A stretch of DNA of 47,976 nucleotides. Origin: a virus. Taxonomy: Duplodnaviria; Heunggongvirae; Uroviricota; Caudoviricetes. The stretch lies in the IMG/VR virus record IMGVR_UViG_2512047041_000006; one strand, given 5' to 3'. The number at the start of each line of letters is the position of its first letter. The first letter of the stretch is position 1. Made by a program: the position numbers and the translations under genes. Of the stretch, positions 16,851-21,061 are shown in pieces. The notes beneath the pieces are model-generated. The model had not been told where the DNA came from. It saw nothing but the letters and a program-made list of their open reading frames with translations, and did not search any database.

Positions 16851-18704
16851 ATGGCATTTAAACACTATGACGTGGTCAGGGCGGCATCGCCGTCAGACCT
16901 TGCGAAACGACTGACACAAAAACTGAAGGAGGGCTGGCAGCCGTTTGGTAGTCCGGTGGCCATAACCCCTTATACCCTGATGCAGGCGATTGCAGCAGAA
17001 GGTGATGTGGTCGTCAGTGGTGCAACTGAGCCGGAGTGGTACTACGTCATCGTACTGGCCGGGCAATCCAATGCCATGGCTTACGGTGAAGGGCTTCCGC
17101 TTCCGGATTCATACGATGCGCCCCATCCGCGCATTAAGCAACTGGCCCGTCGTAACACAGTGACTCCCGGTGGTGAAGTATGCGTATTTAACGACATCAT
17201 TCCTGCTGACCATTGTCTGCATGATGTTCAGGATATGAGTACGATTAACCATCCCCGGGCTGACCTGAGCAAAGGGCAGTACGGCTGTGTCGGACAGGGC
17301 TTACATATTGCCAAAAAACTGCTTCCGTATATCCCTAATAATGCGGGGATCCTGCTGGTACCATGCTGTCGTGGTGGTTCGGCATTCACCCAGGGCACGG
17401 AGGGGACATTCAGCGAGTCCACGGGAGCCAGTCAGGATTCGGCTCGCTGGGGAGTGGGTAAGCCGTTATATCAGGATCTGCTTTTCCGCACGAAGGCAGC
17501 ATTGCAGAAAAACCCGAAAAACGTTTTGCTGGCGATATGCTGGATGCAGGGGGAATTCGATATGACGAATGCCAGTTACGCCCAGCAGCCAGCAGCATTT
17601 CTTGCAATGGTACAGCAGTTCCGTGCTGACCTTGCCGGGCTGGCGGCGCAGTGTCACGGTGGAAGTCCGGCATCAGTCCCCTGGATTTGTGGCGACACGA
17701 CATACGCGTGGAAACAAGAACACGGTACGCAATATGAAGTGGTATATGGTGCATATAAAGGTAAAGAATCCCAGCAGATTTATTTTGTTCCCTTTATGAC
17801 CGATGGTAGCGGAGTTAATACACCGACAAACAACCCGTCAGAAGATCCTGATATTGCCGGGTCTGGTTATTACGGTTCGGCATCCCGAACGAACAAAAAC
17901 TGGGTATCATCAAATCGCCCGACGCATTTCAGCTCATGGGCGCGTCGTGGCATTATTCCCGATCGTATGGCAACTGCTATTCTGAACGTAGCCGGTCGCA
18001 CCTTAGCCTTCATTAGTGGTAAGGCACCGGAAATCAAAGCCTCGCCCGGCGGCGACACGCCATCGGGGCCGTCTGAAGATGCATCCATACGCACAATCTC
18101 CCTGTTGCCGACAGCCGGAGACGCTGCTGCGCAGGGCTGGAGCATTAAGAATGGCGGAATTCAGTTGTCAGATGGTGTATTTAAGATCACCAAGCAGAGC
18201 AATAAAGCCTGGTCCCTGACGCGCCCGGTGGATGACGCAGTCTCCCTGCTGACACGGGGTGGCAGACTGAGCTGTAAGTTTCGACTGTCAGGCGCACTGA
18301 CCAACAACCAGTTCGGTCTGGGAATTTATCTGTATACCGATGTAGCGTTACCTGACGTCGTGGCGATGACCGGGACTGGTAACCCGTTCCTGATGTCGTT
18401 CTTCACCCAGACCACAGACGGCAAACTGAATCTGATGCATCACAAGAAAGCAGGAAACACAAAGTTGGGCGAGTTCGGGAATTACAGTAACGACTGGCAG
18501 ACGCTGGAGCTGGTGTTCACCGCCGGCAGTGCCACGGTTACTCCGAAACTGAATGGAGTGGCTGGCCCGGCATTCCAGGTCATAAAAGACAGTCTGACAC
18601 TGGGGCTGAATGCGCTGACGCTGACGGATATTACCAAAAATGCAGCGTATGGCGTTGAGATAGAAAGTCTGGTGCTGGAGATAAATGCACCGGCATCATC
18701 ATAA
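16851..18704 (+). CDS. NanS-p-like sialate O-acetylesterase (DUF1737 + SGNH/SASA esterase)
   Basis: 617 aa; SGNH motif VLAGQSNAMAYGEG; N-terminal DUF1737-like segment; position between tRNA cluster and holin as in Stx-phage late regions. Confidence 0.72.
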   Translation: MAFKHYDVVRAASPSDLAKRLTQKLKEGWQPFGSPVAITPYTLMQAIAAEGDVVVSGATEPEWYYVIVLAGQSNAMAYGEGLPLPDSYDAPHPRIKQLARRNTVTPGGEVCVFNDIIPADHCLHDVQDMSTINHPRADLSKGQYGCVGQGLHIAKKLLPYIPNNAGILLVPCCRGGSAFTQGTEGTFSESTGASQDSARWGVGKPLYQDLLFRTKAALQKNPKNVLLAICWMQGEFDMTNASYAQQPAAFLAMVQQFRADLAGLAAQCHGGSPASVPWICGDTTYAWKQEHGTQYEVVYGAYKGKESQQIYFVPFMTDGSGVNTPTNNPSEDPDIAGSGYYGSASRTNKNWVSSNRPTHFSSWARRGIIPDRMATAILNVAGRTLAFISGKAPEIKASPGGDTPSGPSEDASIRTISLLPTAGDAAAQGWSIKNGGIQLSDGVFKITKQSNKAWSLTRPVDDAVSLLTRGGRLSCKFRLSGALTNNQFGLGIYLYTDVALPDVVAMTGTGNPFLMSFFTQTTDGKLNLMHHKKAGNTKLGEFGNYSNDWQTLELVFTAGSATVTPKLNGVAGPAFQVIKDSLTLGLNALTLTDITKNAAYGVEIESLVLEINAPASS

Positions 18705-18789
18705 AAAGTGAGCCAGCCAAATGGAAGGTATCGTTAAACTCACCGGTAGTGTCAGTGGGTCGTCTGAGATGCCTGCATGAGTTATCAGA

Positions 18790-18819
18790 GCCATCAGTAC
18801 TTAACTGGTGGCTTTTTTT
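18790..18819 (+). terminator. Terminator hairpin immediately upstream of holin gene
   Basis: GCCATCAGT-ACTTA-ACTGGTGGC stem-loop followed by TTTTTTT. Confidence 0.5.
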
Positions 18820-18854: not shown

Positions 18855-19070
18855 ATGTACCAGATGGAAAAAATCACAACAGGTGTGTCATACACCACGT
18901 CAGCGGTGGGAACGGGCTACTGGTTCCTGCAGTTGCTGGACAGGGTTTCCCCGTCTCAGTGGGCGGCAATAGGCGTGCTGGGGAGTCTGCTGTTTGGGCT
19001 GCTGACATATCTGACTAACCTGTATTTCAAAATCAGAGAGGACCGTCGTAAGGCTGCACGGGGAGAGTAA
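18855..19070 (+). CDS. S: Holin, pinholin class (S21-like), dual-start motif
   Basis: 71 aa beginning MYQMEK (two Met starts); two TM segments; C-terminus [22 protein letters not shown] matches phage 21 S as recalled; GGAG SD. Confidence 0.8.
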
Positions 19071-19074
19071 TTCA

Positions 19075-19419
19075 ATGACTCAAAACTATGAACTGATTGT
19101 GAAAGGGATCCGCAATTTTGAGAATAAAGTTACGGTAACTTTAGCGTTACGGGACAAAAAACGCTTTGACGGTGAAATTTTTGACCTGGACATCTCGCTG
19201 GACCGTGTTGAAGGTGCCGCGCTGGAGTTTTATGAGGCAGCAGCCAGAAGGAGCATCAGACAGGTCTTCCTGGATGTTGCTGCCGGGTTATGTGAAGGGG
19301 ATGAGCAGTCGCCGGAAAAGCGCCCCGTAATTTTAGAGGCGCAGGATGTGTTGATAACCTACAGAGGAAAACTACCGGGAATAATTACGGGTTCTCTGAA
19401 GAGTCCGCCGAAATGGTAA
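19075..19419 (+). CDS. Hypothetical protein between holin and endolysin
   Basis: 114-aa ORF, GGGGAG SD; protein-like composition. Confidence 0.45.
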   Translation: MTQNYELIVKGIRNFENKVTVTLALRDKKRFDGEIFDLDISLDRVEGAALEFYEAAARRSIRQVFLDVAAGLCEGDEQSPEKRPVILEAQDVLITYRGKLPGIITGSLKSPPKW

Positions 19420-19657
19420 TTTTACCAGCATATTTTTCATCCAGTAATACAGCAAGCCGCCTGAAAGAGTCTTGTTGTTCCTGAGACCATTTGGGATTGC
19501 ATGATTCAAACTGGATTGATGCCAGCGTTGATTGCATCTGTTCCCTTGGAATTGAGAATGCCAGATATGAGAAGGCGACGGTAAGGGTATTCACGTCTTC
19601 CCGAAGCCTGGAAATGCTGTCGAGCAACTCCTGTAGAGAAATGGTGTTATTGTCCAT
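19385..19657 (-). CDS. Hypothetical protein, antisense orientation within lysis cassette
   Basis: 90-aa ORF with GAGGA SD 8 nt upstream of ATG; convergent with 19075-19419 and overlapping it by 35 nt. Confidence 0.4.
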   Translation of the reverse strand: MDNNTISLQELLDSISRLREDVNTLTVAFSYLAFSIPREQMQSTLASIQFESCNPKWSQEQQDSFRRLAVLLDEKYAGKITISADSSENP

Positions 19658-19762
19658 AAATAATCCTCATGATTGTATTGACCTGTTAGCAGCCTGAGGC
19701 AACAGGCTGGAACTGATAAACATATCCAGGGCTCAGAAACCGATAAATCCTGATAAATATCC

Positions 19763-20296
19763 ATGAACGCAAAAATCAGATACGGCCTGTCGGCTGCCGT
19801 TCTGGCGCTGATTGCCGCTGGTGCGCCTGCGCCTGACATTCTCGACCAGTTTCTGGATGAAAAGGAAGGTAACCACACCACGGCATACCGTGATGGTGCG
19901 GGTATCTGGACCATCTGCCGCGGTGCCATCCTGGTGGATGGCAAACCTGTCGTTCCGGGCATGAAGTTGTCGAAGGAAAAATGCGACCGGGTTAACGCCA
20001 TTGAGCGTGATAAGGCGCTGGCATGGGTGGAGAAAAACATCAGAGTGCCATTGAGTGAACCCCAGAAAGCGGGGATCGCGTCATTCTGTCCGTACAACAT
20101 TGGTCCCGGTAAGTGTTTCCCGTCGACGTTTTATAAACGAATTAATGCAGGTGATCGCAGGGGAGCGTGTGAGGCGATTCGCTGGTGGATTAAGGACGGT
20201 GGCAGAGACTGCCGTATTCGTTCAAACAACTGCTACGGTCAGGTATCCCGTCGTGACCAGGAGAGCGCGCTGGCGTGCTGGGGAATCGACAGATAA
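19763..20296 (+). CDS. R: SAR endolysin (GH24 phage lysozyme, R21-like)
   Basis: 177 aa; weakly hydrophobic Gly/Ala-rich N-terminal signal-anchor-release segment; catalytic E-x8-D-x5-T triad (DEKEGNHTTAYRDGAGIWT). Confidence 0.85.
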   Translation: MNAKIRYGLSAAVLALIAAGAPAPDILDQFLDEKEGNHTTAYRDGAGIWTICRGAILVDGKPVVPGMKLSKEKCDRVNAIERDKALAWVEKNIRVPLSEPQKAGIASFCPYNIGPGKCFPSTFYKRINAGDRRGACEAIRWWIKDGGRDCRIRSNNCYGQVSRRDQESALACWGIDR

Positions 20297-20386: not shown

Positions 20387-20424
20387 AAAACCCCGTTTGT
20401 TGGCACCAAGCGGGGTTTTGTGTT
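20387..20424 (+). terminator. Candidate terminator between R and Rz
   Basis: AAAACCCCG...CGGGGTTTT hairpin followed by GTGTTT. Confidence 0.45.
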
Positions 20425-20494: not shown

Positions 20495-20593
20495 ATGGCT
20501 GAAAAATTATCCACCTGGAAGTTCATTCTTATCTGGCTGGTGTTTGTGATTATGGCCTCCGGTTATTTCATCGGTCAGATACGCTGGTGGTGA
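20495..20593 (+). CDS. Small hydrophobic peptide (32 aa) upstream of Rz
   Basis: ATG 20495 with GGGAG SD; MAEKLSTWKFILIWLVFVIMASGYFIGQIRWW; stop 2 nt before Rz start. Confidence 0.3.
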   Translation: MAEKLSTWKFILIWLVFVIMASGYFIGQIRWW

Positions 20594-20594
20594 A

Positions 20595-21061
20595 ATGAAC
20601 CGCGTACTGTGCGTGGTCATCATTGCCCTGCTGGTGGCCTGTGGTGCGCTTAGTCTGGGGCTGAATCATTACCGTGAAACGCCATTACCTACAAAGCCCA
20701 GCGCGACAAAAATGTCAGAGAACTGAAGCTGGCGAACGCGGCAATTACTGACATGCAGATGCGTCAGCGTGATGTTGCTGCGCTCGATGCAAAATACACG
20801 AAGGAGTTAGCTGATGCGAAAGCTGAAAATGAAACTCTTCGCGCTGACGTTGCCGCTGGTCGTAAGCGCCTGCGTATCAACGCCACCTGTCCAGGTCCCG
20901 TGCGTGAAGCCACCGGCACCGCCCGCGTGGATAATGCAACCGGCCCCCAACTGGCAGACACCGTTACACGGGATTATTTCACCCTCAGAGAGCGGCTGAT
21001 GACGATGCAGAAGCAACTGGAAGGGGCGCAGGAATATATCCGTACTCAGTGCCTGAAATAA
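20595..21061 (+). pseudogene. Rz: Rz i-spanin, interrupted by frameshift
   Basis: N-terminal TM part in frame 0 (20595-20726, 43 codons, ends NHYR-ETPLP..stop); lambda-Rz-like C-terminal part ([12 protein letters not shown]...) in frame 2 from 20678 to 21061; consistent with a 1-nt deletion near 20677. Confidence 0.7.
20814..20999 (+). CDS. Rz1: Rz1 o-spanin lipoprotein
   Basis: 61 aa; lipobox LVVSAC; Pro-rich; embedded in +1 frame of Rz C-terminal region. Confidence 0.8.

What the first reader, a model, noticed from the sequence alone, without database searches (positions are those of the whole stretch)
18855..20296. Pinholin plus SAR endolysin lysis pair separated by a convergent overlapping ORF pair
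The holin is a 71-aa S21-type pinholin with dual start MYQM, and the endolysin has an N-terminal SAR segment, a matched system. Between them are two protein-like ORFs on opposite strands (19075-19419 plus; 19385-19657 minus), each with a good SD and overlapping by 35 nt at their 3' ends, plus a 7-bp-stem hairpin at about 19690-19710. A minus-strand gene inside a lysis cassette is unusual and could be a regulator or addiction element.
Basis: partly seen in the sequence, partly recalled or inferred. Interest (0 to 1): 0.45.

Follow-up and report, generated by a model that had tools for sequence, protein, structure and literature searches.

The report
Antisense accessory gene inside prophage lysis cassette
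A common E. coli prophage lysis gene set (holin, YdfR, endolysin) carries a small, conserved, uncharacterised gene inserted backwards between YdfR and the endolysin; it is probably an accessory gene made in the dormant prophage rather than part of the lysis machinery.

Summary
The region holds a phage-21-type class II holin (18855-19070), a 114-aa plus-strand ORF (19075-19419), a 90-aa minus-strand ORF (19385-19657, 35-nt 3' overlap), a 7-bp hairpin (19690-19709) and an endolysin with a SAR-like N-terminus (19763-20296).

The arrangement is common and already annotated. The plus ORF is YdfR/DUF1327, found between holin and lysozyme in about 4,300 of 5,426 complete E. coli genomes. The minus ORF ("gene A", phrog_2411) is called "hypothetical protein" in about 1,200 of them, including BL21(DE3).

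Gene A is a real protein-coding gene, with dN/dS of 0.17-0.41 and homologues down to about 26% identity in six genera. It lies on a low-GC insertion of about 300 bp at the ydfR stop. It matches no known family or fold, and I found no literature on it.

New here: in other genera gene A sits at other prophage positions, such as between tail genes or in the early region. There it is always antisense to the phage operon. It almost always converges on a small ORF ending in I-T-G-S-L-x-x-P, the motif that ends this YdfR.

Best reading: a lysogen-expressed accessory gene ("moron") that late transcription silences by antisense. A strict toxin-antitoxin pair is excluded. Its function is unknown.

The parts
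18787..18815 (+). Terminator-like hairpin with a T-run, upstream of the holin and downstream of the 617-aa esterase-like ORF (16851-18704).
   Evidence: 12-bp stem, T-run. It gives context for how late transcription enters the cassette.
18855..19070 (+). Class II holin of the phage 21 S (pinholin) family, 71 aa, with Met1 and Met4.
   Evidence: Pfam PF04971 at E = 9e-33 covering profile positions 1-63 of 64, and phrog_9876/phrog_20 'holin'. TMD1 candidate [20 protein letters not shown] is 65% G/A/S/T/Y. TMD2 candidate [22 protein letters not shown] lies in the most hydrophobic stretch of the protein.
19075..19419 (+). ydfR (DUF1327), long form of 114 aa. It has an N-domain of three strands plus a helix, a linker, and a small basic C-terminal domain ending GIITGSLKSPPKW (the 'B-domain').
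   Evidence: PF07041 at 145 bits and phrog_406 over its full length. PGAP names it 'YdfR family protein'. AF2 model with pLDDT 63. The same C-terminus occurs without gene A in L015 and L016. K-12 YdfR binds the RNase E N-terminal half and co-purifies with RNA (PMC13232886).
19320..19342 (-). Candidate intrinsic terminator of the gene A transcript: GCGCCUC-N9-GGGGCGC followed by UUUU on the minus strand. It lies inside the ydfR coding sequence, 42 nt past the gene A stop.
   Evidence: -11.1 kcal/mol. It fell below the threshold of the scan. Hairpin-plus-T-run sites at equivalent positions occur in L006, L009, L011, L026 and L028. This is inferred, not shown.
19385..19657 (-). Gene A: a 90-aa acidic (pI 4.5) cytoplasmic protein with a predicted three-helix fold, belonging to phrog_2411.
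   Evidence: Family and homologues. dN/dS. AF2 model with pLDDT 74 and helices at 8-35, 38-52 and 59-77. pI. No match in Pfam, NCBIfam, PADLOC or PDB.
19385..19419 (.). 35-nt convergent overlap of the ydfR and gene A 3' ends.
   Evidence: Overlaps of 7, 14, 17, 20, 20 and 47 nt occur in L007, L006, L028, L010, L027 and L009.
19658..19718 (-). Gene A leader: SD GAGGA (19668-19664), an alternative -10-like TACAAT (19677-19672), and the hairpin 19709-19690. Together with gene A it forms the insertion of about 300 bp (about 19416-19718) that is absent from cassettes lacking A.
   Evidence: Alignment with the A-less cassettes L015 and L016. A hairpin at the same leader position, with different stem sequences, occurs in L006, L007, L009, L026 and other E. 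coli alleles. GC is 44%, against 53-55% in the holin and endolysin.
19719..19746 (-). Candidate sigma-70 promoter of gene A: -35 TTATCG (19746-19741), a 16-nt spacer, then -10 TATGTT (19724-19719). It overlaps the region just upstream of the endolysin start.
   Evidence: My own reading. 'CCCTGG(A/T)TATG(T/A)T ... TTCAGCC' is conserved upstream of gene A in the window, L006 and L007. The site did not reach the threshold of the consensus scan. Inferred.
19763..20296 (+). Endolysin (T4-lysozyme family) with a SAR-like N-terminus.
   Evidence: PF00959 at E = 1e-23 and phrog_7. N-terminal segment YGLSAAVLALIAAGAPAP is hydrophobic and 50% G/A/S/T. The triad E35-x8-D44-x5-T50 is present.
20387..20419 (+). 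Terminator-like hairpin between the endolysin and the downstream small ORF and Rz.
   Evidence: 13-bp stem followed by a T-rich tail.
20495..20593 (+). Small ORF of 32-57 aa, depending on the start codon, with one hydrophobic segment. It belongs to phrog_6632, of unknown function.
20595..21061 (+). Rz (i-spanin) gene broken by a 1-nt deletion near 20677. The embedded Rz1-like ORF (20814-20999) is intact.
   Evidence: a single gap in the alignment against the intact Rz genes of L020, L018 and L016; split into 43-aa and 102-aa ORFs.

Best explanation
The region is an ordinary lambdoid lysis cassette: a phage-21-type holin, YdfR, a SAR-type lysozyme and Rz/Rz1. It carries one extra, self-contained transcription unit inserted backwards at the ydfR stop codon.

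That unit is gene A. It encodes a real 90-aa acidic helical cytoplasmic protein. It appears to have its own promoter, a 5' leader hairpin and a ribosome-binding site. Its likely terminator is embedded antisense in the 3' part of ydfR.

Gene A behaves like a 'moron', meaning an accessory gene present in some related phages and absent from others. It would be expressed from the otherwise silent prophage. When Q-dependent late transcription reads through its antisense strand, expression should be shut off by transcriptional interference and antisense pairing.

Gene A is not part of the lysis mechanism. It belongs to a mobile two-gene module in which gene A converges on a small ORF with a C-terminal I-T-G-S-L-x-x-P domain. 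In E. coli that domain forms the C-terminus of long-form YdfR. The biochemical activity of A is unknown.

Shown:
- gene identities
- that A is protein-coding
- the presence/absence polymorphism
- the conserved convergent pairing

Inferred:
- the promoter and terminator
- expression in the lysogen
- reciprocal silencing
For: Identity of the lysis genes and YdfR.

Gene A is coding:
- Intact ORFs of about 81-106 aa with a conserved pattern (L..I..LR..VN.L..AFSYL..S.P.E....L....ES.N) occur in Escherichia, Citrobacter, Atlantibacter, Yersinia, Serratia and Sodalis, down to about 26% identity.
- dN/dS is 0.17-0.41.

Insertion polymorphism:
- Holin-YdfR-lysozyme without A occurs in K-12 Qin, O157:H7 and PigCaeca_2.
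- The junctions lie right after the ydfR stop and just before AACATATCC.
- A-specific DNA is in 1,220 of 5,426 genomes. YdfR is in 4,304.
- The insertion is 44% GC, against 53-55% in the flanking lysis genes.
- NC101 carries an unrelated 79-aa antisense gene at the same site.

Not lysis-specific: A lies between tail genes M and L (L007), between tail genes I and J (L009), between the cI-like repressor and N (L027), and upstream of terminase genes (L026). In these phage contexts it is always antisense to the operon.

Conserved convergent partner:
- The C-terminal motif [IL]-[TIF]-G-[SD]-[LI]-x-x-P recurs across lineages.
- Synonymous codons differ between lineages, so the conservation is at the protein level.

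Transcription-unit elements.
Against: - No expression data exist, and I found no literature.
- The consensus scan found no promoter for A and did not call its terminator.
- The leader hairpin is only modestly better than shuffles. In 6 of 11 lineages z is at or below -2. Its stem is imperfect in some E. coli alleles.
- The recurrent pairing with the ITGSL-domain ORF suggests a functional link that a plain 'independent moron' reading does not explain.
- The small partner ORFs show weak purifying selection in close pairs, with pN/pS of 0.4-1.0 on few substitutions.
Confidence: 0.6

Rival explanations
1. Gene A is a dedicated partner or antagonist of ITGSL-domain proteins, including long-form YdfR. 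In this reading, acidic A made in the lysogen binds and neutralises the basic C-terminal domain of leaky late-expressed YdfR or B protein. Late antisense transcription then removes A. The pair would act as a safety catch or timing switch for a late function, possibly linked to RNase E.
For: - The convergent pairing is conserved in at least seven lineages at different prophage positions.
- The motif is conserved at the protein level.
- The charges are opposite: A has pI 4.5 and the YdfR C-domain pI 9.8.
- K-12 YdfR binds the RNase E N-terminal half and co-purifies with RNA.
Against: - A stays intact where the partner is decayed (L002-L004, L030) or absent (the Sodalis-type loci L008, L024, L025).
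- Long-form YdfR is widespread without A, for example five copies in O157:H7 WS4202 and no A.
- The RNase E-binding part of K-12 YdfR is residues 1-72, not the C-domain.
- The 176/183-aa YdfR extension is not significantly similar to A.
Confidence: 0.2
2. Gene A is a prophage-encoded anti-phage or superinfection-exclusion factor. This is one specific version of the accessory-gene reading.
For: - It is antisense and polymorphic, and sits at sites where prophages carry lysogen-expressed cargo. One such site is the position between the repressor and N, where lambda carries rexAB (my own knowledge).
- sieB, iss and iraM are annotated in the related loci fetched here.
- In a clonal iha island the ORF is intact while the surrounding lysis genes are gone.
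Against: - No match to any PADLOC defence model.
- No enzymatic or sensor domain; the protein is only a 90-aa helical bundle.
- The iha-island allele is clonal (at least 99% identical in 60 genomes), so its intactness says little about selection.
Confidence: 0.15
3. The two convergent ORFs form a toxin-antitoxin or addiction module.
For: The pair is compact, made of two small genes, located in a prophage, and conserved as neighbours. The convergent 3' overlap recalls some type I systems (my own knowledge).
Against: - Each partner occurs widely without the other.
- Neither matches any toxin or antitoxin family.
- Neither has a membrane-toxin-like hydrophobic segment (GRAVY -0.43 and -0.25).
- The genes are not co-transcribed.
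- Overexpressing K-12 ydfR had only limited effects on the transcriptome.
Confidence: 0.04
4. The minus-strand ORF is not a gene. It is a chance or shadow ORF in an untranslated spacer of the late mRNA.
For: The dN/dS frame test cannot separate the A frame from the + strand shadow frame 19491-19697. No protein evidence exists.
Against: - Homologues at 26-60% identity keep the A frame open at about 81-106 aa in six genera and in unrelated genomic contexts. The shadow frame is closed there.
- A conserved SD lies at the correct spacing.
- The confident three-helix model fits the conserved hydrophobic pattern.
Confidence: 0.03

Closest known systems
Lambda bor and its E. coli homologue iss: an antisense accessory gene beside the lysis genes
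   Same: A small gene on the opposite strand to the late operon, next to the lysis cassette, present in some lambdoid prophages and not others, and expressed in the lysogen (my own knowledge of bor). iss is annotated antisense right after Rz in L015 and L021.
   Different: Bor/Iss is a secreted lipoprotein located after Rz. Gene A is cytoplasmic, lies between ydfR and R, overlaps its neighbour's 3' end, and shares no sequence similarity with it.
IraM, an anti-adaptor carried antisense just upstream of the holin in related prophages
   Same: A small (about 107 aa) horizontally acquired cytoplasmic protein encoded antisense in the same late region (L015, L023). It shows what such a small modulator of host proteins can look like.
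   Different: There is no homology, and no evidence that gene A touches RssB/RpoS. This is an analogy only.
Phage 21 S21/R21 pinholin-SAR endolysin system
   Same: The holin is in the Pfam family named for P21 S. The endolysin has a SAR-like N-terminus without a Cys and the E-D-T triad.
   Different: In the phage 21 arrangement S and R are adjacent (my own knowledge). Here YdfR and gene A lie between them. No basic residue lies between Met1 and Met4. Rz carries a frameshift.
E. coli K-12 Qin prophage essQ-ydfR-rrrQ-rzpQ
   Same: The same gene order, holin-YdfR-lysozyme-Rz, and the same DUF1327 N-domain.
   Different: K-12 YdfR is the 103-aa short form with a different C-terminus, and there is no gene A.
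Convergent antisense pairs in temperate phages, such as lambda cII/oop and the face-to-face promoters of coliphage 186
   Same: Convergent transcription with overlapping 3' ends, which gives mutually exclusive expression between lysogenic and lytic programmes (my own knowledge).
   Different: In those cases one partner is a non-coding RNA or a promoter pair in the switch region. Here both partners appear to encode proteins, and the module is mobile between prophage positions.

Membership tests
Pinholin (phage 21 S, class II holin) | Sequence membership in the P21 holin S family | tested here: met
   PF04971 at E = 9e-33, 112.5 bits against a cut-off of 26, covering profile positions 1-63 of 64.
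Pinholin (phage 21 S, class II holin) | Two transmembrane domains, the first weakly hydrophobic (SAR-like) and rich in Gly/Ala/Ser/Thr | tested here: met
   The TMD1 candidate is 65% G/A/S/T/Y. The TMD2 candidate lies in the protein's most hydrophobic stretch (best 17-residue Kyte-Doolittle mean 1.99, starting at residue 37). This rests on composition only.
Pinholin (phage 21 S, class II holin) | Dual-start motif giving an antiholin with an extra positive charge | tested here: inconclusive
   Met1 and Met4 are present (MYQM), but no Lys or Arg lies between them. Phage 21 S has MKSM (my own knowledge).
Pinholin (phage 21 S, class II holin) | Forms small heptameric pinholes that depolarise the membrane rather than release the endolysin | not testable with these tools
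   Needs biochemistry or physiology.
SAR endolysin | T4-lysozyme-type catalytic domain with an E-x8-D-x5-T triad | tested here: met
   PF00959 at E = 1e-23. The segment E35..D44..T50 (EGNHTTAYRDGAGIWT) is present.
SAR endolysin | N-terminal weakly hydrophobic signal-anchor-release segment rich in Ala/Gly/Ser | tested here: met
   Residues 7-26 (YGLSAAVLALIAAGAPAPDI) are 50% G/A/S/T, and Kyte-Doolittle 17-residue means over the N-terminal windows reach 1.1-1.8. The segment has no Cys, so it is R21-like rather than P1 Lyz-like (the subtype is inferred).
SAR endolysin | sec-dependent export, membrane tethering and holin-triggered release | not testable with these tools
   Needs experiment.
YdfR / DUF1327 | Pfam gathering threshold | tested here: met
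   PF07041 at 145.2 bits against a cut-off of 25, covering residues 1-111. PGAP names it 'YdfR family protein'.
phrog_2411 (gene A family) | Full-length profile match | tested here: met
   E = 1.1e-58 over 1-90 of 90. Distant members P0066, P0082, P0085 and P0069 also match, at E = 1e-13 to 1e-21.
Moron (accessory transcription unit in a phage operon) | Present in some and absent from other closely related phages, at a precise junction | tested here: met
Moron (accessory transcription unit in a phage operon) | Base composition differs from the flanking genes | tested here: met
   44% GC against 53-55%.
Moron (accessory transcription unit in a phage operon) | Own promoter and terminator, and expression from the prophage | tested here: inconclusive
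   Only sub-consensus candidates were found. There are no expression data.
Toxin-antitoxin / addiction module | Obligate co-occurrence of the two genes | tested here: not met
   YdfR-long occurs without A. A occurs without an intact partner.
Toxin-antitoxin / addiction module | Similarity to a known toxin or antitoxin family, or a small hydrophobic type I toxin | tested here: not met
   No hit in Pfam, NCBIfam or PADLOC. Both proteins are hydrophilic.
Known anti-phage defence systems (PADLOC) | Match to a defence-system protein model | tested here: not met
   One search gave no hits for gene A, YdfR or two of the three partner ORFs tested. The third had only a chance-level match (JetA, E = 0.036).

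The most novel reading that the evidence does not exclude
Gene A and the ITGSL-domain ORF form a previously undescribed, mobile, two-protein convergent switch in Enterobacterales prophages. Lysogen-expressed acidic A neutralises a late-expressed protein domain, which in E. coli is fused to the RNase E-binding YdfR. Late antisense transcription then removes A. This would tie a prophage accessory gene to the control of host RNA decay or to a defence or exclusion function.
Probability: 0.15. Interest if true: 0.6.

Novelty: new member of a known kind. Interest (0 to 1): 0.35.

Why it matters
The lysis genes themselves are textbook. Three things remain of interest.

- Gene A is an uncharacterised protein family present in about one in five complete E. 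coli genomes, including the workhorse strain BL21(DE3). Any function it has is therefore widespread and easy to test.
- YdfR sits in the lysis cassette of about 80% of E. coli genomes and was recently reported to bind RNase E. A conserved neighbour that converges on its C-terminal domain is a concrete lead to YdfR's role.
- The module shows how compact accessory genes can nest antisense inside essential phage operons, apparently with their terminator inside a neighbour's coding sequence.

None of this is a surprise in kind, because accessory genes in lambdoid late regions are well known.

Tried and rejected
- Fold search of the gene A model against the PDB gave nothing below E = 1.9.
- A profile search of gene A against PDB sequences returned only coiled-coil noise.
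- Pfam scans of every member of the gene A alignment, plus NCBIfam and PADLOC, gave nothing.
- The fold search of the YdfR model gave only weak PUR-repeat hits (E = 0.05, TM about 0.3) on a low-confidence model. I do not rely on them.
- I tried to model an A-YdfR complex as a linker fusion.
- I tested whether the 79-aa antisense gene of NC101 is a diverged gene A. hhalign gave probability 0.3%, so I rejected the idea.
- I tested whether the extra C-terminal extension of the 176/183-aa YdfR variants is a fused gene A homologue, which would have been a 'Rosetta stone' fusion. hhalign gave E = 0.42 and 0.045, with probability about 1% or less. Not supported.
- Rfam found no known RNA in the region or in the gene A leaders.
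- Literature searches for ybl58, DUF1327, protein accessions and the locus tag found nothing on gene A.
- The genome-wide and viral locus scans added only four loci, because the family is rare outside E. coli.
- The consensus promoter scan found no promoter for gene A.
- The iha-island allele looked like evidence that A is retained while its neighbours decay. It is clonal (60 genomes at 99% identity or more), so it carries little weight.
Full report
**1. Observation**

- A 71-aa ORF at 18855-19070 begins MYQM.
- A 114-aa plus-strand ORF lies at 19075-19419.
- A 90-aa minus-strand ORF lies at 19385-19657. Its last 35 nt overlap the end of the plus ORF.
- A hairpin with a 7-bp stem and 6-nt loop lies at 19690-19709.
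- A 177-aa ORF lies at 19763-20296.

Both middle ORFs have plausible ribosome-binding sites: GGAGAG and GAGGA, each 7 nt from the ATG. The hairpin folds at -12.0 kcal/mol. That is modestly better than shuffled sequence (z = -2.0; 7 of 200 shuffles do as well).

**2. The lysis genes**

The first ORF matches Pfam "Bacteriophage P21 holin S" over the whole profile (E = 9e-33). Its first hydrophobic segment is 65% G/A/S/T/Y, and its second hydrophobic segment lies in the most hydrophobic part of the protein. That is the class II, pinholin-type layout.

The last ORF is a T4-type lysozyme (PF00959). It has an E35-x8-D44-x5-T50 triad and an Ala/Gly-rich hydrophobic N-terminus without a Cys, so it fits a SAR endolysin of the R21 type.

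Two caveats apply. First, the dual start has no basic residue between Met1 and Met4, so an antiholin role for the long form is unproven. Second, membrane behaviour cannot be tested here.

Downstream, Rz carries a 1-nt deletion relative to three intact homologues. The i-spanin of this prophage is therefore broken.

**3. The plus-strand ORF is YdfR**

It scores 145 bits against DUF1327, whose cut-off is 25, and PGAP names it "YdfR family protein". Holin-YdfR-lysozyme-Rz is the usual order in E. coli lambdoid prophages. K-12 Qin (essQ-ydfR-rrrQ-rzpQ), O157:H7 and many others have it. YdfR DNA is found in 4,304 of 5,426 complete genomes.

The only functional data I found concern the K-12 protein. 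It binds the N-terminal half of RNase E in two-hybrid and pull-down assays, through its residues 1-72. It also co-purifies with RNA. Overexpressing it changes few transcripts (PMC13232886).

My AF2 model (pLDDT 63) has three parts: a three-strand-plus-helix N-domain, a disordered linker, and a small low-confidence beta C-domain.

The window carries the long form, ending ...GKLPGIITGSLKSPPKW. K-12 has a different, shorter C-terminus.

**4. The minus-strand ORF (gene A) is a real gene**

- It matches phrog_2411 over its full length (E = 1e-58).
- Three isolated phages carry it. One of them, vB_EcoS-783R2, shows the identical four-gene arrangement.
- Its specific DNA is in 1,220 of 5,426 complete E. 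coli genomes, including BL21(DE3). It is always annotated "hypothetical protein".
- Seven E. coli alleles give dN/dS of 0.17-0.41.
- Searches of 5.8 and 1.8 billion proteins find only a narrow Enterobacterales family: Escherichia, Citrobacter, Atlantibacter, Yersinia, Serratia and Sodalis. Members are about 81-106 aa, reach down to about 26% identity, and share a conserved helical pattern.
- The antisense shadow frame, which the dN/dS test alone cannot exclude, is closed in those relatives.
- AF2 gives a three-helix protein (pLDDT 74). It is acidic (pI 4.5) and hydrophilic.
- No Pfam, NCBIfam, PADLOC, PDB-sequence or PDB-fold match exists, and I found no paper that mentions it.

**5. Gene A is an insertion**

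I aligned the window with cassettes that lack A. The extra DNA runs from the ydfR stop to about 19718, roughly 300 bp. The flanks are shared, including the endolysin's upstream region.

The insertion is 44% GC, against 53-55% for the holin and endolysin.

Strain NC101 has a different, unrelated 79-aa antisense gene at the same junction. Other antisense cargo sits nearby in related prophages: iraM lies upstream of the holin and iss lies after Rz. This is the classic pattern of an accessory gene, or moron.

**6. A conserved convergent module (the new result)**

Distant gene A homologues are not in lysis cassettes. Their positions are:

| Locus | Organism | Position |
|---|---|---|
| L007 | Atlantibacter hermannii | between tail genes M and L |
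| L009, L011 | Yersinia | between tail genes I and J (seen in L009) |
| L010 | Serratia-type (protein also in S. ficaria) | early region, near RecT |
| L027 | not named (88% identical to the L010 protein) | between a cI-like repressor and N |
| L026 | not named | upstream of terminase genes |

In every one of these phage contexts gene A is antisense to the surrounding operon. Its 3' end overlaps, or lies a few nucleotides from, a small convergent ORF of 52-85 aa that runs with the operon. Measured overlaps are 7, 14, 17, 20, 20 and 47 nt.

Most of these partners begin with a short coiled coil (EQRIxxLE...). They end in [IL]-[TIF]-G-[SD]-[LI]-x-x-P, the motif at the C-terminus of the window's YdfR. 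Two exceptions: the Serratia-type partner (L010, L027) carries a weaker internal version of the motif, and the L028 partner lacks it.

Codon third positions vary freely within the motif, so the conservation is at the protein level. By my rough estimate the motif should appear by chance near an ORF end about 3 times in 100,000. It recurs in six independent lineages.

In L002-L004 a decayed coiled-coil-type partner lies between the holin and gene A, in place of YdfR. This suggests that long-form YdfR is a fusion of the DUF1327 N-domain with the partner's C-domain.

**7. Transcription-unit anatomy (inferred)**

Upstream of gene A, the sequence CCCTGG(A/T)TATG(T/A)T, then about 5-8 nt, then TTCAGCC is shared by the window, Citrobacter and Atlantibacter loci. 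In the window this gives these candidate elements:

- a -35 at 19746-19741
- a -10 at 19724-19719
- a start near 19712

A hairpin occupies the same leader position in other lineages but with different stem sequences. Six of 11 have z at or below -2. The hairpin is therefore most likely a leader element of gene A, not a signal for the endolysin. A second candidate promoter (TTGCCT, 19 nt, TACAAT) cannot be excluded.

On the minus strand, 42 nt past the gene A stop, GCGCCUC-N9-GGGGCGC-UUUU lies inside ydfR (19342-19320). Clearer hairpin-plus-U-run sites lie at the equivalent place inside the partner ORFs of Yersinia and L028.

None of these sites reached the thresholds of the consensus scan. They remain predictions.

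**8. Mechanism**

The best-supported picture is as follows. Gene A is transcribed from its own promoter in the lysogen, where the late operon is silent. When Q-dependent late transcription runs through ydfR, antisense A and R, convergent transcription and full-length antisense RNA shut gene A off. What protein A does is unknown.

The conserved pairing with ITGSL-domain proteins, together with the opposite charges (pI 4.5 against 9.8), makes a direct antagonist role attractive. The distribution argues against an obligate pair:

- Long-form YdfR is common without A; O157:H7 WS4202 has five ydfR copies and no A.
- A is intact where the partner is decayed (L002, L030).
- A is intact where the partner is absent, as in the Sodalis-type chromosomal loci.

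This excludes a strict toxin-antitoxin relation in either direction. The tail-region and early-region locations exclude a lysis-specific role.

**9. Comparison and verdict**

The closest analogues are other antisense cargo of lambdoid late regions (bor/iss, iraM) and convergent antisense arrangements such as cII/oop. Gene A is a member of none of these families.

The finding as written describes a common, already annotated arrangement. Its lysis genes and YdfR are known. The minus-strand gene is a genuine, widespread, uncharacterised accessory gene, and its conserved convergent partner is worth an experiment. Interest is moderate at 0.35. I class it as a new member of a known kind.

Noticed in passing
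window 20595-21061 (deletion near 20677): The Rz i-spanin gene has a 1-nt deletion relative to intact homologues, which splits it into 43-aa and 102-aa ORFs. The embedded Rz1-like ORF (20814-20999) is intact. The prophage's spanin function is probably defective.
   Followed up: yes
window 20387-20419 and 20420/20495-20593: A strong terminator-like hairpin (13-bp stem) sits between the endolysin and Rz. It is followed by a small ORF with one hydrophobic segment (phrog_6632, function unknown). A terminator inside the lysis cassette would need Q antitermination to be read through.
   Followed up: partly
L021 (E. coli NC101) 1812-2051: A different 79-aa antisense gene occupies the same ydfR-lysozyme junction, and YdfR there ends ...SITGC. 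It has no detectable similarity to gene A. The junction looks like a hot spot for antisense cargo.
   Followed up: partly
P0115, P0119, P0143, P0172 (YdfR variants of 176/183 aa): Many E. coli and Shigella YdfR proteins continue past ITGSLKTPP into an extra helical extension of 60-67 aa (…IEKLE…DEQFAAFYDYCIEVTRRNF…). P0115 alone is seen on 463 contigs. Its function is unknown, and it is not significantly similar to gene A.
   Followed up: partly
L007, L009, L011, L026, L028: about 25-45 nt upstream of the gene A start: The leaders of non-E. coli gene A homologues share GGAGGAATGGCTGATTAACTCTG, a Shine-Dalgarno sequence plus a three-codon mini-ORF (Met-Ala-Asp-stop). In L007 and L009 the same ATG is in frame with gene A and would add 10-12 residues.
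   Followed up: partly
L002-L004 (Logan contigs), 1589-2123 in L002: A ParD/ParE-like toxin-antitoxin pair sits directly downstream of the lysozyme in this variant of the cassette. The partner ORF next to gene A is decayed there.
   Followed up: no
L023 (phage phiSTEC1575-Stx2k) 1285-3303: The class II holin-YdfR-gene A block is followed by a second, different lysis set (two holin-like genes and an M15 peptidase) instead of the SAR lysozyme. That makes two lysis modules in tandem.
   Followed up: no
L030 (E. coli 23CRST012) 2446-2718, and 59 other genomes: A diverged gene A allele lies intact next to the iha adhesin gene in an IS-rich island. The adjacent YdfR C-domain carries a stop, and only a stub of the lysozyme start remains. 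All 60 copies are at least 99% identical, so they are clonal.
   Followed up: yes
window 19075-19290 (YdfR N-domain model): The best, though non-significant, structural matches of the YdfR model are PUR-alpha repeats, which bind nucleic acids (E = 0.05, TM about 0.3). This is curious given the reported RNA co-purification of K-12 YdfR.
   Followed up: partly
window 19591-20100 (- strand) and 19491-19697 (+ strand): Long antisense 'shadow' ORFs lie opposite the endolysin (169 aa) and opposite gene A (68 aa). They share third codon positions with the real genes and should not be taken for genes.
   Followed up: partly
L002 4238-4321: A match to the Rfam sRNA family STnc100 (67 bits against a gathering score of 47), cut off at the locus end, upstream of the holin in this prophage variant.
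   Followed up: no
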